This document shows, one piece after another, positions 1 through 11,010 of a DNA stretch of 64,000 nt. A model generated the notes under the pieces. The model searched no databases. It had not been told where the DNA came from and saw only the letters and a program-made list of their open reading frames with translations. The stretch is from the sequence record NC_134263.1. One strand, 5' to 3'. A program made the position numbers and the translations under genes. The stretch comes from Escherichia phage T5_ev219. Each line of letters opens with the position of its first letter. Within the stretch, counting starts at the first letter, position 1.

Positions 1-32
1 TACCCGTATTCTGCAAATTGAGAGGGAATTAG

Positions 33-350
33 ATGTTTAGTATTATAATTGCTTTTATTATCGGGGTACTTGCGGGAATTTTCGGAATGACTGCGGCTAT
101 TAACAAGCATCGTAAGTATACTGCGGAAGTATCGCGGGAGATTGCGGAAAGAGAGCGAAGGTTTGACGAGAAACGTGCGGAGTTTGAGCGGGAGTGGTCG
201 GATGGATCTCTTCCGCGACGCGGAAGAGATTCCGTGAGTTCAGACCAGAACACAGGTTTGATGATCCTTCTATGCGCTAATTGGGAAATCTCGAAATTTC
301 ATAAGATTACACATGGAGGTGTGCTCACTGCCCCGGGCGAAAATACTTAG
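33..350 (+). CDS. hypothetical small protein with hydrophobic N-terminus
   Basis: ORF track; N-terminal hydrophobic segment then charged region; followed by hairpin at 402-436. Confidence 0.4.
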   Translation: MFSIIIAFIIGVLAGIFGMTAAINKHRKYTAEVSREIAERERRFDEKRAEFEREWSDGSLPRRGRDSVSSDQNTGLMILLCANWEISKFHKITHGGVLTAPGENT

Positions 351-401
351 TCTGCTAACCGCCACCCCCGTTACTATTACCCTGCTAACTGTTTCACCCT
401 G

Positions 402-436
402 CAACCATTTTAATTGCAGGGTGAAACAATTTCAAC
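402..436. terminator. 13-bp-stem hairpin between convergent genes (possible bidirectional terminator)
   Basis: tttcaccctgcaa / ttgcagggtgaaa inverted repeat; flanking U-run weak. Confidence 0.4.
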
Positions 437-444
437 CTTAATTA

Positions 445-1179
445 TTATGCGACTTTTAGTTTCTCAATATATTGTTGCGGGCTGCAACTATATTCTGCGC
501 GTTCTTCCTCGGTCATACTTTCCCAACATAATTGCAGGCGGTCGGCTAGAAATTGATAATCATTATCATCCTCAAGAGATTCATCAATAAAGGTTTCACC
601 TATCAATGTAACCCCAATCGATAGAATATCGTTAATAGCTTGCGCGTCCAGCGTTTTAAATCCGTATGATGCCGCCGCTGATAGCACGCCTTTATGATCA
701 TCAATCATTGTAAAATCAGCGTTTGGATATAACTGTTTAAATAACTCAAAGTAATGGCTTTTATAAATAGCGTCTTTACTGTGGTATATCTCGCTAACTT
801 TATCAGCCTCAAAATATTTGTGTAGTGTATCGCGGGAAAACACGCGGATATTGCTTTTATCACGACCGCGCAGACCTTGTTTACGCAAATAATAATAGTC
901 CGACTTGCTCATTAGTCGAGCGGTACAAATAATGTTTAAAGTATTTGCGTCATTCATGCACTGGCGCATATATGTAACAAGGGGCAATAGTGTATCTTGC
1001 ATTATTAAATCATGTTTGCAGGCTTCATTTTTATACTTATTTAAATCTAAATTGCCCTCGCTATCAAAGCAAGGCGCTACACGATGAAACGAATTAATGA
1101 TAGTGCCGTCCAGATCCCAAATCATGACGCGGGAAATATGCGGGAAATTACGGGTAATATTCATTTTAACTTGATTCAT
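445..1179 (-). CDS. dmp: 5'-deoxyribonucleotidase (HAD-superfamily), T5 dmp-like
   Basis: 244 aa; HAD motif I DLDGTI near N-terminus; left-end position followed by A1-like gene as in T5. Confidence 0.8.
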   Translation of the reverse strand: MNQVKMNITRNFPHISRVMIWDLDGTIINSFHRVAPCFDSEGNLDLNKYKNEACKHDLIMQDTLLPLVTYMRQCMNDANTLNIICTARLMSKSDYYYLRKQGLRGRDKSNIRVFSRDTLHKYFEADKVSEIYHSKDAIYKSHYFELFKQLYPNADFTMIDDHKGVLSAAASYGFKTLDAQAINDILSIGVTLIGETFIDESLEDDNDYQFLADRLQLCWESMTEEERAEYSCSPQQYIEKLKVA

Positions 1180-1253
1180 TTTGTTACGTTCTCCATTAAA
1201 GGGATTAAATTAAATTAATCCAGCCCACTGGATGGGCTGGACTATTTCAGCTA

Positions 1254-1646
1254 TTAAAGACCATAAGCCAACGCATCAGCGATAAAACTAACATCTTCAC
1301 CCGATACACTGGAACGAATCCCCGCACAAGTATATACTTTTGCGCTGATCAATTGATCATCAAGACAAGCGGGGCAAGGCGCGACAACTGCAAAGGCTAG
1401 GCCGGATTTTACGGCGTCGATGATAATCGTTTCTTGTTTCACCGTGTCAACATAAACACCTTTTGCTTTAATATGGCTTGTCAGTTTGCCCTGCATATAT
1501 GCAAACGTTGTAACCTGCAAAGCGTCATTGAAATCTAATAATTCATCAATAACGTGCCCCGCCTCGACGTGGTAACGTTCGCCATTAGAATAAACCAGAA
1601 CAATGGAAGATTGAGCGCGATCGAATGGAATATTTTGCTTTTTCAT
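1254..1646 (-). CDS. hypothetical protein
   Basis: 130-aa ORF in pre-early block, same strand as neighbours. Confidence 0.5.
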   Translation of the reverse strand: MKKQNIPFDRAQSSIVLVYSNGERYHVEAGHVIDELLDFNDALQVTTFAYMQGKLTSHIKAKGVYVDTVKQETIIIDAVKSGLAFAVVAPCPACLDDQLISAKVYTCAGIRSSVSGEDVSFIADALAYGL

Positions 1647-1684
1647 ATTTATAAAACCCCAATTAGTTTAATAATGGATTTAAT

Positions 1685-1942
1685 TTATTTGATAATAATC
1701 TGCATCTGGTACGGCGTTAATTCACCGTTTACGGGTAAATTATTATCGCTTAGCCACTCATAAAAAGCGCCATCGTCATCAAAAGGAACAACATCATTAT
1801 CACGGGAATCGACGGAAATAATACCATCAGTATTAGTTTTAGCGGCTAGGATAGGCCCGAAGCTGTAAACTTTATCAGATTCCATTTCATCCGGTGAAAT
1901 GAATACTTTTTCGTCCAATGTTTTGGGTAATGTAACTTTCAT
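1685..1942 (-). CDS. hypothetical protein
   Basis: 85-aa ORF, compact spacing with neighbours. Confidence 0.5.
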   Translation of the reverse strand: MKVTLPKTLDEKVFISPDEMESDKVYSFGPILAAKTNTDGIISVDSRDNDVVPFDDDGAFYEWLSDNNLPVNGELTPYQMQIIIK

Positions 1943-1998
1943 TTTTTGTGACTCCTGTAATAGCGGCTATATTTCAAGCCGCTAGGGAAATAATTTAA

Positions 1999-3669
1999 TT
2001 ACGCAAAGAATTTACCGTTTTTAAAGTCGATCAAAGTGCGTTGACCGTTTGCATAGGTAATTAAATGCGTCTGCGTCCAACTTGACGCGCCAACGTTGTA
2101 GCCCATATCCAGACTACCAGCTACGCCAGCGGTATATACGCCGCCATAAATGCTGGCGGTATGGGTATGCCCCGTGTTTAACTTGCCCAATTTTTTAAAT
2201 TGTTTAGGATTGCCACGACTGCCGTTAATGCCATTGTGACCGTGTACGCCGCATTCAATGCCTGCAATCTTGAAAGATTGATCAGTGGTCAGGAAAATGG
2301 CGTTAAATTCACAACCTGCAACCTTGCGCAACGCATAATCTAGCACGTTAAACGTTTCGTCGTGTTCACCGATTGCCGCGTAAATTGCAGCATTCAGGCG
2401 GTGATATAACTCGGCGTTTGCTGGATCGTCTTTGATGTTAGCATTACGATCATCAAGCCAACGGGATAGCGCCAAATCGTGATTAGATTCAACAATGATT
2501 GTTTGACTAAAATCACGTTCCATTGATTCCAGCACGCGCCCCGTATCGATAAGATCATCCAGAACTTTATCACGTCCGGCGGCGTATTGTTTAGCTAGGA
2601 ATACACCGGATGCGCGGTTATGATGATTGCGGGATGTAAAATCGTGAACGTCATGCACAAACTGATATTTTGGTTTAAGAATATCTACTAGCCCATAAGT
2701 ATCACCATGCCCCCAAGATGCGGCGGCGCACTCCTCATCTAATTTTTCGGCGTGAATATCGCCATACTGCAAGCCTAAAACATGCCCCGATGTCTCATAG
2801 CATCCGGCAGGAGTAGCGCAAACGTTCAGATCATAAAACACCCCGCTTTCGTCCATTGTTTCAAGCTGGCGAACAAAAAATTCCCCGTCCTCATCGAACT
2901 CAACAATCAGCGCACCGAAGTTATGCAGCGCCTCGGCCTTTTGTCCTGCTTTCTGCTGAATGTAGTTTTTTAACGTTGCCGTTCCGGTTGAATACATACG
3001 GCGCACTACTTCACCTTTTAAAGCTGGCACGCTTTCAGCGGTAATTTTAGCGTGACCAATTGCCAGCCCCTCAATATTTAAAGCCGTTGCAGTCTCGGCG
3101 AATCCAGAAAGCGGATAATCTGCGGTTGGCAAAACATTAATTTCAGCCATGAAAGCAAAACGGCGATTATTCAAAAACACGTTTTTGCTGCAAATATATT
3201 TATCGAACGCGGAATCATATTTGATTCCATCCGCACCTTCCCCATTTTGGAATCCGTTTTTATTATAAATATACTTAGAAACAAGCAAATCAGCGCCGAT
3301 ATATTTAGCAAATTGCTCCAGTGAGGCTAAAAAGTTTTTATGCGGGAAAGTATTATTCTGAATCGAGGTAATAATAAAGCGTTTACCTTGTTTTACTTCC
3401 CATTGCTCCACCGTACTAGAAACAATCCCCGCCGCTTCTGGGCGTTCATCGTTTTTAATGGCTTTTGCTACTTTCGCCGCTTTCGGTTTCGCTGGTTTAT
3501 TTGCTTCCAGCCAGTCGCAGATAGCGGTCGAGTGTTTTGTAGTATCATAGACCGCTTTTGATATATCGTCGCAGACTTCCAGTTTAGTAGCGCGCAGACG
3601 TTTACCGTAGAAATTGAAGTCAGCGGCCATTTTCAGGATAACGGTTTGTTTTTCTGCGGAAATAATCAT
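1999..3669 (-). CDS. A1: pre-early A1 protein (calcineurin-like metallophosphoesterase motifs)
   Basis: Track ORF 561 aa; start at Met6 gives 556 aa with GGAG RBS 9 nt upstream; motifs GDIHAE, GHGD, SNHD. Confidence 0.8.
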   Translation of the reverse strand: MIISAEKQTVILKMAADFNFYGKRLRATKLEVCDDISKAVYDTTKHSTAICDWLEANKPAKPKAAKVAKAIKNDERPEAAGIVSSTVEQWEVKQGKRFIITSIQNNTFPHKNFLASLEQFAKYIGADLLVSKYIYNKNGFQNGEGADGIKYDSAFDKYICSKNVFLNNRRFAFMAEINVLPTADYPLSGFAETATALNIEGLAIGHAKITAESVPALKGEVVRRMYSTGTATLKNYIQQKAGQKAEALHNFGALIVEFDEDGEFFVRQLETMDESGVFYDLNVCATPAGCYETSGHVLGLQYGDIHAEKLDEECAAASWGHGDTYGLVDILKPKYQFVHDVHDFTSRNHHNRASGVFLAKQYAAGRDKVLDDLIDTGRVLESMERDFSQTIIVESNHDLALSRWLDDRNANIKDDPANAELYHRLNAAIYAAIGEHDETFNVLDYALRKVAGCEFNAIFLTTDQSFKIAGIECGVHGHNGINGSRGNPKQFKKLGKLNTGHTHTASIYGGVYTAGVAGSLDMGYNVGASSWTQTHLITYANGQRTLIDFKNGKFFA

Positions 3670-3758
3670 AGTATAAAACTCCATTAAAGGGATTAAGTTA
3701 ATAACGGCAATATTGCCAAATATAACGCCTATTATTCAAGGCGTTATAATTTGCAACA

Positions 3759-3956
3759 TTAATTTAAAGGCATAAGGCTAGAACTAACACCACAAGCAAC
3801 GGCAGCGATAAAACAAAGCAGACCTAAACGTTTTGCTAATTTAGATTTACGTTTAAAATAATATGAATCTAAATCATTTTGAAAATAAGCGAATAATAGG
3901 GAGGCCGCCATAATAAATAAGCCTAGAATTAAAGATTCAGTAGGGAAGAAAACCAT
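3759..3956 (-). CDS. small membrane protein
   Basis: 65-aa ORF, two hydrophobic segments. Confidence 0.4.
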   Translation of the reverse strand: MVFFPTESLILGLFIMAASLLFAYFQNDLDSYYFKRKSKLAKRLGLLCFIAAVACGVSSSLMPLN

Positions 3957-4046
3957 TTTTAAAACTCCTGATTTAAGGGAAGAAAATAACTATCGCTAAA
4001 CAGTTATATTATTGCCCCCTCACTAAAAGGGGGCAAGATATAACTA

Positions 4047-4454
4047 TTATTCGCCTGCGGCCTGTTTTACTTCATCGGCAACGCCTAACAATTGCGCTAC
4101 TGCGTCCAGCGTTTCAAGTTTTGCACTTTCAAGGCTTGCCAAATCATCGGCGTCTTTGATAATGCCGGAATCAATAGCATGTTTAGCGATAACGCGCACA
4201 TAGTGAGCTTTACGCACAGAGCTACCGCCGCCAACTTTACGCGGCTTATCGCTTTTTTGATAGGCTTTTGCACTGGTCAATTTTGAGCGAACGGATACGG
4301 GGGAGGCCGCGCCTACTGCTTTTGCAATCTCTTTCAGGCCGTCGCTATTTGCAAAATCTAAACCGTTTTCGTTGATTAACTGCTGGTACATGGTAACAGC
4401 TTTCTGAGTGTTTTCTTCATTCCATGCGAATTTTGCGGTTTTTGCGTTAGTCAT
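4047..4454 (-). CDS. pre-early protein, candidate A2 (small DNA-binding protein)
   Basis: 135-aa ORF immediately downstream of A1, Lys/Ala-rich; assignment by position only. Confidence 0.5.
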   Translation of the reverse strand: MTNAKTAKFAWNEENTQKAVTMYQQLINENGLDFANSDGLKEIAKAVGAASPVSVRSKLTSAKAYQKSDKPRKVGGGSSVRKAHYVRVIAKHAIDSGIIKDADDLASLESAKLETLDAVAQLLGVADEVKQAAGE

Positions 4455-4553
4455 GGTAAAAACTCCTATTAGTTTAATTTAAGGGATTTAATGATTAACC
4501 TAATGTTAATCGTTATATCCCCTTATTTCAGGGGATATAAAGTTAACACTAAT

Positions 4554-4805
4554 TTATAGTACAGCTTCCCATTTTTCGTTGCGTTGAACAACTTTTACAA
4601 CGTCGCCGGATTTAACGCGAACGCTAAAAACGGTTTTGCCGTTGTTACTACGTTCATTTTCAGCGTATACCGCGTCGATTGTATCAAACGGCATAAGCGC
4701 CGCACCTTTAATACGTTCGGCTTTTCCGGTTAGTTCATCCGTTTTAGTAACGAAAGGAATAAAAACGGATTGACCAATTTTAGGCGCGGTAATAACGTTT
4801 TTCAT
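4554..4805 (-). CDS. hypothetical protein
   Basis: 83-aa ORF. Confidence 0.45.
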   Translation of the reverse strand: MKNVITAPKIGQSVFIPFVTKTDELTGKAERIKGAALMPFDTIDAVYAENERSNNGKTVFSVRVKSGDVVKVVQRNEKWEAVL

Positions 4806-5032
4806 AATATAAACTCCTAGTTATTTGGGGATTGTTCCGCATTACCTGCTAGAAAGTAGCAGGTAATAAGCAACAATCCGCTCACCGCTATAATCAATTT
4901 AAAGAACTCCATGCAGGCCGCTATATCCCAGTTAGGGGGCGGGACACATTATGGTAAGTGCCGACCGTCAGATTTTATCAAGTTATCGCTCTTATCGAAC
5001 TGAGTACATCTTAAAGCCTATCGGCTAGGTTG

Positions 5033-5236
5033 TCAAACAATTTTTTGAGATTTTTTATGATTTTCTTTCAGGTCAATCATAATATTCCGCCAGATCATTT
5101 CTAAACCTTGCTGGCGACCTTTCTTGTACTGCGTGAATCGGTATTTTACCGATCTTTGCGCTATTGTCAACAATTTTTTAGTTTCGCTATCCAGTGCCTT
5201 GCTAGGTTTACCAGTGATCAATAAAGTTTGTTTCAT
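5033..5236 (-). CDS. hypothetical small basic protein flanked by 16-bp inverted repeats
   Basis: 67-aa ORF; perfect IR cttaaagcctatcggc at 5010-5025 and 5271-5286. Confidence 0.4.
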   Translation of the reverse strand: MKQTLLITGKPSKALDSETKKLLTIAQRSVKYRFTQYKKGRQQGLEMIWRNIMIDLKENHKKSQKIV

Positions 5237-5690
5237 ATCGTCGATTCCTTATATAATAGATAAGTTTATCGCCGATAGGCTTTAAGATATACCCAATTTT
5301 TAAAGAGCGCGGCGGTAAACTTTCCCGCCGTTGTAGTTCGTCATTGCCGCCCTACGAGATAAATAATAGCAAATGCCAAAAATGGCGCAACCTTATTTTT
5401 GTAAAGAAACGTAAAGACAAATGCCACCGGACACCGTGCGGCGACGGCCTAAAATTAAAAGAAACGGGCGCGCGAATACCACAAAACAAAGCAGATAGGC
5501 AAGTAATTTTTTCATTTATATTTGCTTCCCCTACTTGACAAAATCTAAAAAGCTCGTGGCAGCGATAAACGAGGGTAGGCAATGCAATGGCATGGCTAAA
5601 ACTTTCATCGCGTTCTAGGGCGTTTTAGGCGCCTTAAATTGGACTTAACAAATATTTAACAAAAGCAAAATTGAAAAATAGTTGAAAAAG

Positions 5691-5714
5691 GTCTTGACTT
5701 TTAAAAATCAAGAC
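5691..5714 (-). terminator. hairpin downstream of HNH gene
   Basis: gtcttga...tcaagac stem followed on minus strand by a T-run. Confidence 0.45.
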
Positions 5715-5739
5715 TAAATAAGTTAATTTAGTAAATAAA

Positions 5740-6258
5740 TTAATTGACAATTCCATATTCAGCTTTTTTAATTTCAAGCCATAATAATAACTCTTGTAAA
5801 TCATAACCAGACTTACTAACACGCTTGTTAGTAATAGGATTCTTAATTTGAGCAGTCAAATAGTCACGCCCGTAATTATCCCGGGGGCGAACTTTATTAA
5901 CGTAAATGTTTTTAGGGATACCATTAGCACGCTTACAGTTTTCATACTCACTAGGAGTGCGATTATAATTATTCTGCGAACTATCAACCGCGCGAAGATT
6001 CCAGATGTTATTATTACGAGTGTTACGATCAATATGGTCAATCATTAGCTCGCTATCTATACCGCCATTCATTATACAAAAGATAATTCTATGTACTTTG
6101 AATTGTCCCATGTCTAATAGTTCAACTTGCCAATAATTACCATTTAAACCACCTGCGATGGCGTGATCTTCTCGCCAACGTAAAAACGATAACGACGTTT
6201 CATCATAATAAAAGTAACTATTAAAAAGGTCATAATCTATATCTTTATATTTAGGCAT
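5740..6258 (-). CDS. HNH homing endonuclease
   Basis: 172 aa; HNH-like motif HRIIFCIMNG...DHIDRNTRNNNIWNLR. Confidence 0.65.
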   Translation of the reverse strand: MPKYKDIDYDLFNSYFYYDETSLSFLRWREDHAIAGGLNGNYWQVELLDMGQFKVHRIIFCIMNGGIDSELMIDHIDRNTRNNNIWNLRAVDSSQNNYNRTPSEYENCKRANGIPKNIYVNKVRPRDNYGRDYLTAQIKNPITNKRVSKSGYDLQELLLWLEIKKAEYGIVN

Positions 6259-6448
6259 CTAATTGTTTCCTTATGTTATTACTTTAATCTCTATTATATT
6301 ATATCAAAATGATTAGCAGACTAGCTAATGAGTTTTTCAGGTTTAATTAGCTGACTCATAATCACTATAAAAACCTATTAGCCAACTAACTATATTTTAC
6401 GATATAATAACTACATAAATTAGTTAGTGAGAATCACTATCATTTAAG

Positions 6449-6530
6449 TTATCCACAGACTTAATCACAGCACAAAATGATTTGACACGATAGGCGGCGA
6501 TATAAGCACTTATCCACAGACTTATCCACA
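6449..6530 (+). promoter_or_regulatory. cluster of three DnaA-box matches (TTATCCACA)
   Basis: Exact TTATCCACA at 6449-6457, 6510-6518, 6522-6530. Confidence 0.6.
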
Positions 6531-6536
6531 TGTTAT

Positions 6537-6556
6537 CCTACTGTATAAATATACAA
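6537..6556. promoter_or_regulatory. LexA-box-like palindrome, imperfect
   Basis: cctactgtataaatatacaa; CTGT-N8-ACAA, one mismatch from CTGT-N8-ACAG; inverted copy of 10066-10085. Confidence 0.4.
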
Positions 6557-6822
6557 GGTAGAAAGGTAGTGTTAACAACTGCAATCAATTTCAGGCGGCC
6601 TAAAACGCTTTCTAACGAGCTAAATGCGGTGGGGTAATATTAAAGTAAAGCCTTCACCCGTCGCCCTGGAGGCTCCGCCGTGTTTTGCTTTTTACTGCAC
6701 CGCTGCGCGGTTAGCATAAAACTAGGTGTTAGGCAAGGAAAATAAAAAGGTAAAATAATATTTGCCCCTAGAAAGAAAATACCTTTATCATTCTTCTACC
6801 GATTAACGAGGGAGGCCAACAA

Positions 6823-7815
6823 ATGAGGCTATATAAACCAGATAACGCAACCGTCTTAAAAGGTGCGCTGCGTAACCTGCTGGACGGTAGCAGAACAACC
6901 AGCATTAAACATTTTATTAACAAGGCTGAAACTATTCACCAAAACTTTTTTGATGATTATGATGCCTATGATATGGATAGTTTTCTACCATTATATAAGC
7001 AAGGGGCAACGCTAGTTTTATATAATCAGGAATCTCACTTGCTTACTAGTCGAGGGCCAGATACTGATTTTATTATAGTGAAAGGCAGTACAGTAAAAGC
7101 CTATGATGCGGGGGCGGGCTTAGAAGTTTTCTCGATAGAAAATTATGAGCCTTATGATAAGGATCTTTATGACGTAGAAAATTTTCTCGATTCATTTTGG
7201 CGTTATTTATCAATTGGGTGGAATCGGTCGGATTATGACGGGTATCGTTTTGCGGCTGTAATGGCTTTTGATGATAACGGTAATTTTTTGTTACCGTCGG
7301 AATTATACCCGTATGTATACAATGATTTAATAGAGGAGGCTGGTTTTACTTTCTGGAAAGATGAAGATCAGCCTATTGACAATATAGAAAACCATGCTGT
7401 AAATTCTAACACTCAAAGCGTTAACACTCAAATTACTGAAAACAAAGGAAAAAATACCATGACCAAGATCGCTAATATCGTTGCCGCTAATAAATCCGCT
7501 GTTGTAAATGCTGCAAAACTGGAGGCGGGTAAAATTGCATTAACTCAAATTACGAAAGTAGCGGCTAAAAAAGCACCATTCATGATCAAAGGTTATATCG
7601 ATACGCCTATTGGTCGAGTAGTGATTGCTAACCTGCTGAGTGTAGCGGTTGACCAATACGCCCCAAATAACCAAAAGGCGAAAGCGGTAGCAGGGGCGGC
7701 TATGGAAGCGGCAATGCTGGAAATGGTGCAAAGTTTTAACATCGCTGAAATGATTGATGAAATGGTGAAAGGTATTGATATTTCTACTTTTACCACTAGC
7801 ACCGAAATCGAGTAA
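6823..7815 (+). CDS. hypothetical protein
   Basis: 330-aa ORF with GGGAGG RBS; Ala/Lys-rich C-terminus. Confidence 0.6.
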   Translation: MRLYKPDNATVLKGALRNLLDGSRTTSIKHFINKAETIHQNFFDDYDAYDMDSFLPLYKQGATLVLYNQESHLLTSRGPDTDFIIVKGSTVKAYDAGAGLEVFSIENYEPYDKDLYDVENFLDSFWRYLSIGWNRSDYDGYRFAAVMAFDDNGNFLLPSELYPYVYNDLIEEAGFTFWKDEDQPIDNIENHAVNSNTQSVNTQITENKGKNTMTKIANIVAANKSAVVNAAKLEAGKIALTQITKVAAKKAPFMIKGYIDTPIGRVVIANLLSVAVDQYAPNNQKAKAVAGAAMEAAMLEMVQSFNIAEMIDEMVKGIDISTFTTSTEIE

Positions 7816-7880
7816 TAATATTTAGTGGGGATTATTTCCCCACTTTACTATTCCCTTGTTAATTAATAGGAGGATAATAA

Positions 7881-8375
7881 ATGGCTGAGGAAAAATACGG
7901 CTTCTCGCTAGGGGAAGTGAGCACGGCTAAACACGATATGATCATTTTGGTTGATTGTCATACGGGTTACTGCGGTGAAGGGAATACCGAAGAATATTTT
8001 GTTCCTGCTGGTACGGATCTCGACGCTTTCGCTCATGAAATGGCGGTTGATAATGCTTCTCGTTTTGGTAGCGATGGTTATGAAGATGAAGAAACTGGCG
8101 ATTGGTATGAGAATGATAATGTATATGCAAGCCTTTATCATTATCAATTAAGTAAATCCGGCACGTATGTAAACGGCGGCGATCCTATTAATTCCGTCAT
8201 GAAATTAATTATTAAATATGGTGGCGCTGAGATAATTGGTAACAAAGCGGTATTATACGCAAATCGATTAAAACAGCTTGTTTATATCCCTGATAGTACC
8301 CGATGGGAGGAATATGCTGTTTTGCATGACGAATTGAAACGATGTTTCAATATTGAATCCTTGCAGGTAGTCTAA
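7881..8375 (+). CDS. hypothetical protein
   Basis: 164-aa ORF with AGGAGG RBS. Confidence 0.6.
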   Translation: MAEEKYGFSLGEVSTAKHDMIILVDCHTGYCGEGNTEEYFVPAGTDLDAFAHEMAVDNASRFGSDGYEDEETGDWYENDNVYASLYHYQLSKSGTYVNGGDPINSVMKLIIKYGGAEIIGNKAVLYANRLKQLVYIPDSTRWEEYAVLHDELKRCFNIESLQVV

Positions 8376-8479
8376 TGTAAAGTTTTGTAAAGGTCGCCTT
8401 TTATGGTGGCCTTTTTTGTTATAATGCCTTTACACCAAAACGGTGGATTGAAAATTTCCCAAAAATTTGGAGGCTTAAA

Positions 8480-8710
8480 ATGGTTGCATACTCTTCTGCT
8501 AGTCATCTGTTCACCGCTCAAGGTTGGGTGTCTAATCGCGTAATCATTCATGAAATGGTGCAGGAGTTCGGCATTGCTAAAACTTATAACACCATCCAAG
8601 AACTATACAACGCCGATAAAATCGATCAGCAAACGGCGGGCTTTTTGCTGGACACGCTGAAAGCGGAACACTGTACTAAAAAACAAGCGGCAAAAATTGT
8701 TTTAATGTAA
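8480..8710 (+). CDS. hypothetical protein
   Basis: 76-aa ORF. Confidence 0.5.
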   Translation: MVAYSSASHLFTAQGWVSNRVIIHEMVQEFGIAKTYNTIQELYNADKIDQQTAGFLLDTLKAEHCTKKQAAKIVLM

Positions 8711-8910
8711 TTAATAACGGGGCGTTACTTTCGCCCCACTAACTAGGGGAGTATTACAAATGGTTATTTTTCGAGCTATTTTAGCTGGTATCTTGGGCGC
8801 TATTTTATCACTTTTTGCAATAGCTTTCGGCGTTCACGCGGTTATTATTGGTGCGGGTATCGCCGTTTTTTCTTATTTGCTGGGCTGCATGAGTAAAGGA
8901 GAATAAAAAA

Positions 8911-9123
8911 ATGATTCGTAACGTTTCCCTTGCACGTTCAAAGGGTTTTAAGCTGGTGGATGTAAACACGTTTGAGCGGGAGGATTGTAAAATTGAATAT
9001 GTAGCACGTAACAAAAATGCCTTTCGTGTTACCGAGAAAAAATTTGACAAGCGCGGCAACGTGGTCGCTGAAACAGTTAAACACTTTGCCACCTTTTACG
9101 CGGCTTTTCGTGGGGTGTTATAA
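8911..9123 (+). CDS. hypothetical protein
   Basis: 70-aa ORF with AGGAG RBS. Confidence 0.45.
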   Translation: MIRNVSLARSKGFKLVDVNTFEREDCKIEYVARNKNAFRVTEKKFDKRGNVVAETVKHFATFYAAFRGVL

Positions 9124-9124
9124 A

Positions 9125-9469
9125 ATGGTTATTTATGAGGGCAATCGTTTTGTTGCTAATTGCCGTCCGGCATTACTAGCAAACTATTTAAACCAGCTTT
9201 CCCCAGCTTACAAGGGCGTTATTAATATTTATGAGGGCAAGGCGCATTATAAAATTAATGCGGTCGTTGCCCGTGAACTAGCGTTTCAATTTTTGACCTT
9301 TGCATCTTGTGACGTTCAGGTTATGGGTGAAGCATTAATTGCGGAAAATGAAGATGATTTTATTAATATTTTCCGCAAGGTATGTACCGAGCGCCTGATA
9401 ATGAAAGGCGCATATATTCAATCCACTGCGGATAGTATTGAAACAGCGTTTCGAAAGGTGGCGCAATGA
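9125..9469 (+). CDS. hypothetical protein
   Basis: Track ORF 9017..9469 trimmed to Met at 9125, which abuts the stop of the upstream gene. Confidence 0.5.
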   Translation: MVIYEGNRFVANCRPALLANYLNQLSPAYKGVINIYEGKAHYKINAVVARELAFQFLTFASCDVQVMGEALIAENEDDFINIFRKVCTERLIMKGAYIQSTADSIETAFRKVAQ

Positions 9470-9494
9470 GATTATATAATAACGGAGCGTTATT

Positions 9495-9698
9495 ATGAGC
9501 AATAAAATTGTTGTAACCAAAATCAGTACAATGGTTGACGTTTTTTATGTGCCCGATACGCCGGAAAACCGACAAGCGGTCGAGCGGGGCGAATATGATA
9601 GCGTTATTTATGATGCCGATGGTTATTATCATCATTTGGTCGATTCCTATGGGGAAGAGGAGAAGATCACGCATCGACTACCCGAGGGGGATTTATGA
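9495..9698 (+). CDS. hypothetical protein
   Basis: 67-aa ORF. Confidence 0.45.
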   Translation: MSNKIVVTKISTMVDVFYVPDTPENRQAVERGEYDSVIYDADGYYHHLVDSYGEEEKITHRLPEGDL

Positions 9699-9849
9699 AA
9701 CGATGGTTTAATCACTGGTATAAGCGGTTTTTAGTACGCCGTCGCAAGTCTAGACAACAAGATGAGTGGCGGGAGTGGGCAAAGCGTAACGGTTGCCCAC
9801 TACTATAATAATAACGGGGCGCAACTATCAGGGAGTGCCCCCAATTCTC

Positions 9850-9870
9850 AAATGAGAATCATTCTCATTT
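9850..9870. repeat. 21-bp perfect palindrome
   Basis: aaatgagaatcattctcattt. Confidence 0.7.
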
Positions 9871-10065
9871 GACCGCGCCCGCGATGGTTAGCCTGCTAAT
9901 GATTAGGGTGTTACGTGTCGCCTTGTGTGATCGTTAGCGAGCTAACTAATTTTCAAGCCTCCTCCAATTTTGCCCTTGTTTTAGTATCCCCACCAAAATT
10001 AAACGCGTTAGAATGCGATCTAGGACGTTTTAACGCTATATTAGAACTATTCACTGCATAGGAAT

Positions 10066-10085
10066 ACTGTATATTTATACAGTAG
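10066..10085. promoter_or_regulatory. LexA (SOS) box consensus palindrome
   Basis: tactgtatatttatacagta contains CTGT-N8-ACAG; adjacent TTATCAACA-like motifs and a perfect DnaA box (ctgtggataa) at 10166-10175. Confidence 0.5.
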
Positions 10086-10189
10086 GATAAGCTGTTGATA
10101 AGTCTGTTGATAACGCTTCAAAATGGCTAGGATTCTGTCAAGTCAAATCGTGCTGTTAATAAGCCTGTGGATAACTTAAATAACAGTGT

Positions 10190-10370
10190 TTCTCATTCCC
10201 GTTTTTAAACGAGAATCATTATCATTCGCATTCCACTATCTAACTGATAATCATTCCACTTTTTAAATGAGAATCATTTCACTTCCTGAATAATTTTCAT
10301 TTCACTTTCTAAATGCAAATCATTATCATTCGCATTCCGCTTTTTAAATGCGAATGATTCTCATTTGTAT
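10190..10370. repeat. array of degenerate ~20-35-bp repeats
   Basis: tttttaaa(c/t)g(a/c)gaatcatt units at 10202, 10260, 10340; atcattatcattcgcattcc twice. Confidence 0.65.
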
Positions 10371-10408
10371 TAGCATTCAGGCGAGCAGGGCAATTGCCCT
10401 GCGCTTTT

Positions 10409-11010
10409 GTGCAAATCCGACATTTGCCCCCATGGATTACACGTGGGCGTGTATGTGCAAATCCGACAATTTTTGGTAGTGTGCAAATCCGACCCGAAAA
10501 ATTTTTATAGTGTGCGAATCCGACAATGAATTTTCCCAAAAACTCCAGCAATCACGAACTGCGTTCGAATCCTGTGGAATTAGCTAGAGTATGTGCAGAT
10601 CCGACATGAGTTTATTTGTGCGAATCCGACAAGATTTTTGTGACTTCGATTGGAGGGTGTGTGATTGTATAGGTTTGAGGAGAAGGTGAGAGAGCGAGAA
10701 AAATTTGGGAGGCTAGAAGGATGTGGGCGCAGGATTGGTGCGGAGCACCTGATTTGCGGGGATTTTGGGGAATAGTTGAGATAATTTGGGAAGATTTGAG
10801 ATAGGTGCAGAAAAAGTGAAATTTTATTAGCTAAACGGGGTAAAATAGCTTGACAAGTGAAAATTCTTGTGGCTCTAAAAACTCAGGCAATCATGGGCCT
10901 TCGGCCCGAAATAATGCTGCCATTTTCAGGGTTCCTAAAAACTTAGGAGACTCCTGTCATTGTGCAAATCCGACCATAAATTTCTAGAAACACAATGTGC
11001 AAATCCGACA
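10409..11010 (+). repeat. eight same-orientation copies of 14-bp motif GTGC(A/G)(A/G)ATCCGAC(A/C)
   Basis: Copies at 10409, 10455, 10480, 10512, 10593, 10618, 10962, 10997; ninth copy at 12851 inside an ORF. Confidence 0.7.

What the first reader, a model, noticed from the sequence alone, without database searches (positions are those of the whole stretch)
6449..10175. 3.6-kb plus-strand gene block bracketed by inverted repeats carrying DnaA-box and LexA-box motifs
Three exact TTATCCACA DnaA boxes and a near-LexA palindrome lie at 6449-6556; the reverse-complement arrangement recurs at 10066-10175 with a perfect CTGT-N8-ACAG LexA box and a perfect DnaA box. The six plus-strand ORFs of the pre-early region sit between them. 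Host DnaA or LexA binding at both flanks could couple this block to host replication or SOS state, or the repeats could mark a recombination module.
Basis: seen in the sequence. Interest (0 to 1): 0.65.

Follow-up and report, generated by a model that had tools for sequence, protein, structure and literature searches.

The report
T5 injection-stop inverted repeats, LexA site
These are the already-published inverted repeats with DnaA boxes that bracket a pre-early operon in the terminal repeat of T5-like phages; I found no report that each repeat also ends in a near-consensus site for the host SOS repressor LexA, kept across the whole phage family, which gives a testable lead on how T5 pauses DNA injection.

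Summary
A ~128-bp imperfect inverted repeat (6428-6558 / 10065-10195) flanks seven plus-strand ORFs. Each arm holds four DnaA-type boxes in one orientation, a fifth partial box and a LexA-type palindrome.

The window is a T5-like phage with one collapsed terminal repeat (~322-10875). The arms are the published IRC-spacer-IRD / IRD'-spacer-IRC' repeats (Davison 2020). Their eight paired DnaA boxes are already proposed as part of the injection-stop signal, so the structure and its DnaA boxes are already known.

The LexA site is not mentioned in any paper I could search. The right-arm site TACTGTATATTTATACAGTA is 19/20 to the LexA consensus and outscores 19 E. coli operators. Exactly two such sites, next to DnaA boxes and flanking the block, recur in 30 Tequintavirus-like phages and in Klebsiella, Pantoea, Proteus, Vibrio and Aeromonas relatives.

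The sites lie about 180-200 bp from the mapped promoters, so classical SOS control of the block is not supported. The block varies in gene content and is inverted in Sugarlandvirus.

Best reading: the arms are landing pads for host DnaA and LexA on freshly injected DNA, linked to the transfer pause. No binding data exist.

The parts
322..10875 (.). Terminal repeat (first-step-transfer DNA), present once in a collapsed assembly. Bases 1-321 match the unique DNA that precedes the right terminal repeat in T5.
   Evidence: Homology to the T5 left end, the T5 left-terminal-repeat end and the flank of the right terminal repeat.
6266..6340 (-). Homologue (93%) of the leftward promoter annotated in T5 (AY543070 5938-6012).
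6428..6558 (+). Left arm, equivalent to T5 IRC-spacer-IRD. It consists of an outer GTGAGAA..TTTAAG element, a DnaA box pair, a spacer containing a conserved TTGACA, a second DnaA box pair, a partial box and a LexA-type site.
6449..6457 (+). DnaA box TTATCCACA (consensus).
6461..6469 (+). DnaA-type box TTAATCACA (1 mismatch), 3 bp after the first box.
6510..6518 (+). DnaA box TTATCCACA.
6522..6530 (+). DnaA box TTATCCACA, 3 bp after the previous box.
6533..6541 (+). Partial DnaA-type box TTATCCTAC, 2 bp after box 4. It overlaps the LexA-type site by 3 nt.
6539..6558 (.). Degenerate LexA-type site TACTGTATAAATATACAAGG (17.0 bits; ACAG changed to ACAA). It is intact (CAG kept, at least 19.8 bits) in 24 of 30 related phages.
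6596..6625 (+). Inner weak extension of the inverted repeat (contains ..CGCTTTCTAACG..). Its partner is 9998-10027.
6739..6817 (+). Homologue (87.5%) of T5 pre-early promoter P11, which drives the block.
   Evidence: P11 validated by primer extension in PMC7472727
6823..9698 (+). Pre-early operon between the arms. ORFs: 6823-7815 (DUF7566), 7881-8375, 8480-8710, 8760-8906, 8911-9123, 9125-9469, 9495-9698. None has an established function; one PHROG family carries a functional label (nicking of abasic sites).
9998..10027 (-). Inner weak extension of the inverted repeat; partner of 6596-6625.
10065..10195 (-). Right arm, equivalent to T5 IRD'-spacer-IRC'. It lies inside the region annotated as the injection stop signal in T5.
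10065..10084 (.). Near-consensus LexA-type operator TACTGTATATTTATACAGTA (25.5 bits of a possible 27.0).
10082..10090 (-). Partial DnaA-type box TTATCCTAC, overlapping the LexA site.
10093..10101 (-). DnaA-type box TTATCAACA.
10105..10113 (-). DnaA-type box TTATCAACA.
10154..10162 (-). DnaA-type box TTATTAACA.
10166..10174 (-). DnaA box TTATCCACA (consensus).
10196..10875 (.). Non-coding repeat field running from the right arm to the end of the terminal repeat. It holds GAGAATCATTATCATT-type and GTGCAAATCCGAC repeats and the homologue of the T5 major nick at about 10405. It is the rest of the region annotated as the injection stop signal.

Best explanation
**Identity (shown).** The two arms are the conserved IRC-spacer-IRD and IRD'-spacer-IRC' repeats of the terminal repeat of T5-like phages.

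**Anatomy (shown).** Each arm is a one-directional array: two pairs of DnaA boxes, each pair 3 bp apart, then a partial box 2 bp further on, which overlaps a 20-bp LexA-type palindrome. The two arrays point at each other across the P11 pre-early operon.

**Mechanism (inferred).** Both arms lie outside the mapped promoters. They enter the cell when only host proteins are present. The right arm sits just left of the point where DNA transfer pauses. I therefore read them as high-affinity landing pads for pre-existing host DnaA and LexA. The resulting nucleoprotein complex would mark or hold the end of the first-step-transfer DNA, and phage A1/A2 would later override it. Davison proposed the DnaA part in 2020. 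The LexA component is the addition made here.

**By-product.** The arms also serve as substrates for occasional homologous inversion and exchange of the operon between them.
For: **Identity**
- The arms align without indels to T5 6100-6232 and 9412-9539. The right one lies inside the T5 'injection stop signal' feature 9140-10149.
- Davison describes the same 131-bp repeats, with eight DnaA or DnaA-like boxes in pairs 3 bp apart, in 25 phages. He places the shear point about 150-290 bp to the right of the right arm.

**Motifs are not chance**
- DnaA boxes: 5 found against 0.6 expected, 4 of them in the arms.
- The right LexA site scores 25.5 bits. The best of 19 E. coli operators scores 24.1. 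The next-best site outside the arms in the 64-kb window scores 14.3.

**Conservation among close relatives**
- In 30 distinct phages the right site scores at least 22.5 bits in 30 of 30. The left site scores at least 19.8 bits in 24 of 30.
- Mean pairwise identity is 1.00/0.97 (left/right arm) for the CTGTAT half-site and 0.92/0.99 for the ATACAG half-site. It is 0.86/0.78 for the palindrome centre, 0.77/0.86 for the spacer and 0.76/0.82 for the inner flank.
- The variants seen (CTGG, CCAG, a free centre) are those also found in genuine E. coli LexA operators. Per-position information correlates with that of the E. coli sites, r = 0.83.

**Conservation in distant relatives**
- Each distant locus has exactly two top-scoring LexA-type sites, beside DnaA boxes or in the same non-coding regions as them. 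They lie in the two non-coding regions that flank the opposite-strand block.
- Scores: Klebsiella 25.5/23.2, Pantoea 24.7/22.5, Proteus 24.2/19.9, Vibrio 23.4/17.7, Aeromonas 19.6/19.6. The third-best site in each locus scores 12.4 or less.

**Position**
- The arms lie between, not on, the mapped promoters. The right arm is followed only by non-coding repeats.
Against: - There are no binding or genetic data for DnaA or LexA on T5 DNA. Papers from 2023 and 2026 state that the function is untested and the mechanism is poorly understood.
- The left LexA site is broken (ACAA) in this phage and in 4 other of the 30 phages compared (5 of 30 in all). Davison notes that IRC boxes are missing in several phages. 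The left arm is therefore at least partly dispensable.
- Half of the boxes are non-consensus (TTATCAACA, TTATTAACA) and their affinity for DnaA is unknown.
- A protein bound to DNA that is already inside the cell does not by itself explain why the DNA outside stops. A tether or a loop has to be assumed.
- From my own knowledge, not checked here: T5 plates on recA1 laboratory strains. If so, LexA cleavage cannot be required for the second transfer step.
- All known hosts share one LexA motif, so no test of co-variation with host specificity was possible.
Confidence: 0.5

Rival explanations
1. Transcriptional control. LexA and DnaA act as operators or roadblocks that couple expression of the flanked operon, or of cryptic transcripts starting inside the arms, to the host's SOS or replication state.
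For: - The palindrome contains -10-like hexamers on both strands (TATAAA / TATATT).
- The scan finds TTAACA-16-TATATT on the minus strand at 6575-6548 (10 of 12 matches), with its -10 inside the left LexA site.
- Box 4 (TTATCC) lies 17 bp upstream of the TATAAA.
- A LexA site overlapping a -10 element is the classical operator geometry.
Against: - The promoters mapped or annotated in T5 are 180-200 bp away. P11 is the promoter validated in vivo.
- The TTAACA -35 is absent from T5 and its closest relatives.
- The right arm has no gene downstream and would fire antisense into the operon.
- The overall count of promoter-like sites is only modestly above shuffles: 25 against 16.9 +/- 4.2.
Confidence: 0.15
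2. The palindrome and boxes are recognition sites for phage proteins: A2, a dimeric DNA-binding protein, together with A1. They would be used to restart transfer or to cut the DNA. On this view the resemblance to host motifs is coincidence or mimicry.
For: - A1 and A2 are required for second-step transfer, and A2 binds double-stranded DNA as a dimer.
- A2 and A1 homologues are present in every genus that keeps the motif pair.
- Davison suggests that palindromes in this region are cleavage sites.
Against: - The site matches the host LexA consensus at 19 of 20 positions, with a LexA-like information profile.
- The site stays the same while A2 identity falls to 40-42%.
- The A2 model is all-helical, with two three-helix modules. 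It has no significant match to any solved fold, LexA's winged helix included. This is a weak model, so the point is inconclusive.
- No phage protein is present when the pause is set up.
Confidence: 0.15
3. The arms matter mainly as recombination substrates. They are the boundaries of an exchangeable, invertible gene cassette, and the motifs have no binding role.
For: - Gene content between the arms differs widely. DUF7566 is absent in several phages, and the 164-aa ORF is present in about a third.
- The inner distance ranges from about 1.6 to 4.1 kb.
- The DUF7566 and 164-aa homologues lie on the opposite strand, in reversed order, in the Sugarlandvirus loci L039-L042.
Against: - There is no recombinase or transposase in or beside the block, and no target-site duplication is visible.
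- In Proteus, Vibrio and Aeromonas phages little long inverted repeat is left. The LexA-type and DnaA motifs persist there as islands. That is selection on the motifs, not on repeat length.
Confidence: 0.08
4. The DnaA-box clusters are an oriC-like replication origin, or a DnaA-dependent primosome loading site, in the terminal repeat.
For: Eight DnaA-type boxes are present. Within each arm they are same-orientation arrays with 11-12 bp phasing, as in oriC (the oriC comparison is also made by Davison).
Against: - T5 replication origins map near the centre of the genome.
- Replication genes are on second-step DNA and are not expressed during the pause (Davison).
- No adjacent unwinding element was identified; I did not search for one systematically.
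Confidence: 0.05

Closest known systems
IRC-spacer-IRD / IRD'-spacer-IRC' inverted repeats of the bacteriophage T5 first-step-transfer region. The naming is attributed to Wang et al. in the paper read; Davison 2020, bioRxiv 10.1101/866236. DnaA boxes were first noted in 1987 according to Davison's reference 6.
   Same: - Same position in the terminal repeat and the same order of elements.
- Eight DnaA or DnaA-like boxes in pairs 3 bp apart.
- The arms align without indels to the T5 copies.
- The right copy lies inside the annotated injection stop signal.
   Different: - Nothing structural differs.
- This phage keeps all four left-arm boxes, three of them perfect, whereas T5 has lost one.
- This phage carries a G-to-A change in the left LexA-type half-site.
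- The published descriptions I could read never mention LexA, SOS or promoters.
LexA operators (SOS boxes) of Gammaproteobacteria, consensus TACTG(TA)5CAGTA, for example at recA, umuDC, sulA and dinD.
   Same: - The right-arm site matches the consensus at 19 of 20 positions.
- Its PWM score is above all 19 reference operators.
- The conservation profile across phages mirrors that of the E. coli operators.
   Different: - It does not overlap any mapped promoter.
- It occurs as two inverted copies about 3.5 kb apart in non-coding DNA of a strictly virulent phage.
- It overlaps a DnaA-type box by 3 nt.
oriC-type DnaA box arrays: high-affinity R boxes that nucleate same-orientation low-affinity sites spaced 2 bp apart.
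   Same: Three same-orientation 9-mers with start-to-start spacings of 12 and 11 bp, and two arrays that face each other. The comparison with oriC rests on established knowledge and on Davison.
   Different: - The arrays are 3.5 kb apart rather than adjacent.
- No unwinding element was identified.
- The T5 origins lie elsewhere.
LexA-controlled switches of temperate phages, for example coliphage 186 tum, CTXphi and GIL01 (the last seen in PMC6182141; the others from my own knowledge).
   Same: A phage genome carries a host LexA operator and so could sense or use the host SOS repressor.
   Different: Those operators sit on promoters and govern the lysogeny-lysis decision. Here the phage is virulent, the sites are not on known promoters, and they are paired with DnaA boxes at the boundary of DNA transfer.

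Membership tests
T5 IRC/IRD inverted repeats (associated with the injection stop signal) | Two inverted copies of about 130 bp inside the terminal repeat that flank the rightward pre-early operon. | tested here: met
   Arms at 6428-6558 and 10065-10195. The same arrangement is seen in all 39 related loci that contain the region.
T5 IRC/IRD inverted repeats (associated with the injection stop signal) | Four DnaA or DnaA-like boxes per arm, in pairs separated by 3 bp, with a fixed spacer between the pairs. | tested here: met
   Boxes start at 6449/6461 and 6510/6522, and on the minus strand occupy 10166-10174/10154-10162 and 10105-10113/10093-10101. The arms align to T5 without indels across the spacer.
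T5 IRC/IRD inverted repeats (associated with the injection stop signal) | The right copy lies just left of the point where first-step transfer stops. | not testable with these tools
   Known only by homology. The T5 right arm, 9412-9539, lies inside the annotated injection stop signal 9140-10149, and the shear point is at about 9618 in AY587007 coordinates.
LexA operator (SOS box) | A CTGT-N8-ACAG palindrome with an AT-rich centre, scoring in the range of proven operators. | tested here: met
   The right site scores 25.5 bits; known operators score 13.0-24.1. The left site scores 17.0 bits with a broken CAG in this window, but is intact in 24 of 30 relatives.
LexA operator (SOS box) | Overlaps or adjoins a promoter and represses a downstream gene. 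| tested here: not met
   The mapped promoter homologues are at 6266-6340 and 6739-6817, about 180-200 bp away. There is no gene downstream of the right arm. Only unvalidated promoter-like matches overlap the sites.
LexA operator (SOS box) | Bound by LexA in vitro or in vivo. | not testable with these tools
   No experimental data were found.
DnaA box cluster | 9-mers matching TTWTNCACA, enriched above chance. | tested here: met
   Four perfect boxes lie in the arms; the window has 5 against 0.6 expected. Four more boxes in the arms have 1-2 mismatches.
DnaA box cluster | Origin function: an adjacent unwinding element and replication initiation. | not tested
   The literature places the T5 origins near the centre of the genome.
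Site-specific invertible segment (Hin/Gin/Cin type) | An invertase gene within or next to the segment. | tested here: not met
   Pfam and PHROG scans of all block ORFs and their neighbours found no recombinase. The only hits were DUF7566, an HNH endonuclease and PHROG families, most of them of unknown function.
Site-specific invertible segment (Hin/Gin/Cin type) | Both orientations are observed. | tested here: inconclusive
   The opposite orientation is seen only between genera (Sugarlandvirus against all others), not within a lineage.
Transposon or cassette with terminal inverted repeats | A transposase gene and target-site duplications. | tested here: not met
   There is no transposase, and the outer flanks of the two arms do not match.

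The most novel reading that the evidence does not exclude
A near-consensus LexA operator is an invariant component of the injection-stop architecture throughout the Demerecviridae, and I found no report of it. Host LexA, together with DnaA, is loaded onto the entering DNA and takes part in setting or timing the pause between first- and second-step transfer. On this reading, a strictly virulent phage uses the SOS repressor as a structural or timing factor rather than as a promoter switch. The pause would then be sensitive to the host's SOS state, because A1-dependent degradation of host DNA could itself remove LexA within the 3-5 min pause.
Probability: 0.25. Interest if true: 0.8.

Novelty: already known. 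Interest (0 to 1): 0.5.

Why it matters
How T5 stops DNA injection at about 8% of its genome and then restarts is still unsolved. Papers from 2023 and 2026 say that the mechanism remains poorly understood and that the roles of the repeats and DnaA boxes are untested.

The inverted repeats and their DnaA boxes are not new. A family-wide LexA-type operator fused to the DnaA arrays adds a second candidate host factor, and one that is easy to manipulate. From my own knowledge, lexA(Def) sulA and lexA(Ind-) strains are viable and standard, unlike dnaA nulls.

If LexA proves irrelevant, the sites still mark a strongly constrained 20-mer. Any model of the injection-stop signal has to explain it.

Tried and rejected
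1. **Fur-box idea for the GAGAATCATTATCATT repeats.** The 19-bp Fur consensus with up to 3 mismatches hits only 549-573, not the repeats in the injection-stop region. The 15-bp 7-1-7 core gives 5 hits against 0.94 expected. I left this as a side note.
2. **Co-variation test with hosts that have a different LexA motif.** The A1 homologue of Dinoroseobacter phage R5C sits in a structural-gene module. That locus has no comparable architecture, no DnaA boxes and no LexA-type site. The test was not possible.
3. **Is A2 a LexA-like winged-helix protein that could own the palindrome?** There was no sequence hit in the PDB. The single-sequence AlphaFold model has pLDDT 76 and is all-helical. Foldseek found no match with E below 0.1. 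Inconclusive.
4. **Classifying inner flanks as 'left-type' or 'right-type' to trace inversions.** The flanks of Pantoea and Klebsiella phages look swapped relative to T5, but this does not track gene orientation. Gene conversion between the arms is a likely cause. I did not use this as evidence.
5. **Literature that was not held.** The Davison 2015 review (PMC4743489) and the supplement to the 2020 preprint were unavailable. The original 1987 and 2005 papers are also not among the papers I found or read. I therefore cannot exclude that one of them mentions a LexA-like site.
6. **Terminator between the last ORF and the right arm.** The simple scan found none there, and the T5 terminator did not map to the window by BLAST.

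Full report
**What is there**

- Exact TTATCCACA boxes lie at 6449, 6510 and 6522 on the plus strand and at 10166-10174 on the minus strand. The window holds 5 against 0.6 expected, and 4 of them are in these two short stretches.
- CTGT-N8-ACAG is at 10067-10082.
- The two stretches are inverted copies of each other: 6428-6487/10136-10195 at 83%, 6510-6555/10068-10113 at 91%, and a weaker inner extension 6596-6625/9998-10027 at 77%. A pairwise alignment shows one continuous arm of about 128 bp.

Read from the outside in, each arm has the same elements:
- a GTGAGAA..TTTAAG element;
- a pair of DnaA-type boxes 3 bp apart;
- a spacer with an invariant TTGACA;
- a second pair of boxes 3 bp apart;
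- a partial box, TTATCCTAC, 2 bp further on;
- a 20-bp LexA-type palindrome that overlaps the partial box by 3 nt.

All boxes within an arm share one orientation and point into the block.

**Where the window comes from**

The window is a T5-like phage.
- Its A1 protein is 99.8% identical to that of Escherichia phage VEc33 and 96% identical to that of T5.
- The 4.4-kb region is 90-93% identical to many Tequintavirus-like records.
- Bases 1-321 match the unique DNA that precedes the right terminal repeat of T5. The T5 left end maps to about 322, and the end of the T5 terminal repeat maps to about 10875. The assembly therefore carries one collapsed copy of the terminal repeat.

T5 features map onto the window as follows:

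| T5 feature | Window position |
|---|---|
| Leftward promoter | 6266-6340 |
| Pre-early promoter upstream of gene 011 (P11) | 6739-6817 |
| Major nick | about 10405 |

P11 has been validated in vivo by primer extension (PMC7472727).

Seven ORFs lie between the arms. They comprise DUF7566 and six PHROG families, of which five have unknown function and one carries a label for nicking abasic sites.

**What is already known**

Davison's 2020 preprint (10.1101/866236) describes exactly this pair, as IRC-spacer-IRD (T5 6022-6152) and IRD'-spacer-IRC' (T5 9332-9462).
- The repeats are conserved in 25 T5-like phages.
- They carry eight DnaA or DnaA-like boxes, 'always in pairs separated by 3 bp'.
- The coding region between them is highly divergent.
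- According to that paper, the DnaA boxes were first noted in 1987.
- Davison proposes that membrane-bound DnaA binds these boxes and stops DNA transfer. He argues that both repeats belong to the injection-stop signal.

The T5 GenBank record annotates 9140-10149 as the injection stop signal, and the right arm lies inside that feature. Later papers state that no experiments have tested these sites (PMC10644984; PMC13250531). The core of the finding, inverted repeats with DnaA boxes bracketing the block, is therefore already known.

**What appears not to have been described**

The 2020 preprint contains no occurrence of 'LexA', 'SOS' or 'promoter'. Four full-text searches that combined T5, T5-like or Demerecviridae with LexA terms returned only unrelated papers. 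The 2015 review was requested and is not held, and I did not read the 1987 or 2005 papers, so this is not proof of novelty.

The palindrome is a very good LexA operator.
- The right-arm site, TACTGTATATTTATACAGTA, differs at one position from the textbook consensus TACTGTATATATATACAGTA.
- I built a PWM from 19 E. coli operators recalled from the literature. On it the site scores 25.5 of a possible 27.0 bits, above the best operator in the set (24.1).
- The next-best site outside the arms in 64 kb scores 14.3.
- The left-arm site scores 17.0, because ACAG has become ACAA.

*Conservation among close relatives.* I fetched 40 loci through the A2 protein, which gave 30 distinct arm pairs.
- The right site keeps CTGT-N8-ACAG in 28 of 30. 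The other two have CTGG, a variant also found in genuine operators. Every right site scores at least 22.5 bits.
- The left site scores at least 19.8 bits in 24 of 30. The ACAA variant of this window is a minority form, present in 5 of 30.
- Mean pairwise identity is 1.00/0.97 (left/right arm) for CTGTAT and 0.92/0.99 for ATACAG. It is 0.86/0.78 for the centre, 0.77/0.86 for the spacer and 0.76/0.82 for the inner flank.
- Per-position information in 23 unique phage sites correlates with that of the E. coli operators, r = 0.83.

*Conservation in distant relatives.* I fetched the regions upstream of A1 in five more distant Demerecviridae. Each has exactly two high-scoring LexA-type sites, in the two non-coding regions that flank the opposite-strand block and also hold the DnaA boxes (usually right beside the site). 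The third-best site in each locus scores 12.4 or less.

| Phage | Genus or group | A1 identity to the window | LexA-type scores (bits) |
|---|---|---|---|
| Klebsiella JIPh_Kp127 | Sugarlandvirus | 72% | 25.5 / 23.2 |
| Pantoea AAS21 | Markadamsvirinae | 65% | 24.7 / 22.5 |
| Proteus phage 1 | Novosibvirus | 42% | 24.2 / 19.9 |
| Vibrio D260 | not classified in the record | 34% | 23.4 / 17.7 |
| Aeromonas AhSzw-1 | Shenzhenvirus | 34% | 19.6 / 19.6 |

In these phages little of the long inverted repeat remains, so the motifs persist as conserved islands. This is the strongest evidence that the motifs themselves are under selection.

**How it most likely works**

Shown:
- the anatomy of the arms;
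- their position outside the mapped promoters;
- the right arm's position, by homology, just left of the pause point;
- conservation at the level of the motifs.

Inferred:
- When this DNA enters the cell only host proteins are available, so the arms are best read as landing pads for host DnaA and LexA.
- The resulting complex takes part in holding or marking the end of the first-step DNA until A1 and A2 act. This is Davison's DnaA model with a LexA dimer added at the inner end of each DnaA array.

Confidence:
- about 0.97 that this is the IRC/IRD pair;
- about 0.6-0.7 that the conservation reflects binding of host proteins;
- about 0.3-0.35 that the function is the transfer pause;
- 0.5 for the composite explanation.

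Points against:
- There are no binding data.
- The left arm is partly dispensable. Its LexA site is broken here, and IRC boxes are missing in some phages.
- A protein bound to DNA already inside the cell needs a tether or a loop to stop the DNA outside.
- T5 is believed to plate on recA1 strains (my own knowledge, unchecked). If so, LexA cleavage cannot be required for restart.

**Rival explanations**

- *Classical SOS or DnaA control of the block (0.15).* This fits poorly, because the sites are 180-200 bp from the mapped promoters and the right arm has nothing downstream. Only an unvalidated promoter-like match, TTAACA-16-TATATT at 6575-6548, overlaps the left site, and its -35 element is missing in T5.
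- *Sites for phage A2/A1 (0.15).* This cannot be excluded. The site equals the host consensus, however, and it stays the same while A2 identity drops to 40%. The A2 model shows no LexA-like fold, but the model is weak.
- *A pure recombination role (0.08).* Gene content is variable, and the DUF7566 operon is inverted in Sugarlandvirus. There is no recombinase, though, and the motifs outlast the repeat. I take recombination between the arms to be a by-product.
- *A replication origin (0.05).* Published origin mapping argues against this.

**Verdict**

The element itself is already known. The LexA-type operator is a well-supported addition that I did not find reported, and it gives direct genetic and biochemical tests for an old open problem. 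Interest is 0.5.

Noticed in passing
window 554-568; also 6428-6442, 9853-9867, 10210-10224, 10314-10328: A perfect Fur-box 7-1-7 core, TGATAATCATTATCA, lies inside the dmp ORF. Four copies with 2 mismatches sit at or next to the arms and in the repeats of the injection-stop region. That is 5 hits against 0.94 expected, with 0 of 100 shuffles reaching 5. Similar GAGAAT..ATTATCATTCGC repeats flank the arms in the Pantoea and Aeromonas phages. The T5 receptor FhuA is Fur-regulated (my own knowledge).
   Followed up: partly
L039-L042 (Sugarlandvirus; for example L042 locus 6470-8918) compared with window 6823-8375: The homologues of DUF7566 and the 164-aa ORF lie on the opposite strand and in reversed order between the arms. 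The promoter-operon unit is therefore inverted in this genus relative to all the others examined.
   Followed up: partly
window 6547-6550 and 10073-10076; alignment: The asymmetric centre of the palindrome (AAAT or ATTT) flips between phages and between arms, while the half-sites stay fixed: 16 AAAT-type against 9 ATTT-type perfect sites in right arms. This suggests template switching or gene conversion at the palindrome.
   Followed up: no
window 6596-6625 / 9998-10027; L042 9015-9047 / 9312-9344; L043 9355-9392 / 9870-9907; L045 8994-9046 / 10536-10588: A further motif..GCGCTTAGAATGCGTTACAG.. (TTCTAAGCG / CGCTTAGAA), recurs on the inner side of the arms and as local inverted repeats, even in the Vibrio phage. 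Its function is unknown.
   Followed up: no
window 1-321: The first 321 bases match the unique DNA that precedes the right terminal repeat in T5 (92% over 416 nt). The window therefore comes from an assembly with a single collapsed terminal repeat, not from the physical left end of the genome.
   Followed up: yes
window 5740-6258 (-): An HNH homing-endonuclease gene lies immediately left of the left arm. Among related phages it is present at 95-99% identity, at about 50% identity, or absent. The sequence just outside the left arm falls into two types.
   Followed up: partly
window 10401-11010: There are many copies of GTGCAAATCCGAC in the non-coding field to the right of the right arm. They extend past the inferred end of the terminal repeat. 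The homologue of the T5 major nick maps here, at about 10405.
   Followed up: no
window 9695-9811 (+): A possible small ORF of about 38 codons, below the cut-off of the ORF listing (MKRWFNHWYKRF...), overlaps the stop codon of the last block ORF. I saw it by eye and did not test it.
   Followed up: no
window 4047-4454 (-), A2: The single-sequence AlphaFold model of A2 is all-helical, with two three-helix modules (pLDDT 76). The only matches are weak ones to homeodomain, Myb and transposase-type HTH domains.
   Followed up: partly
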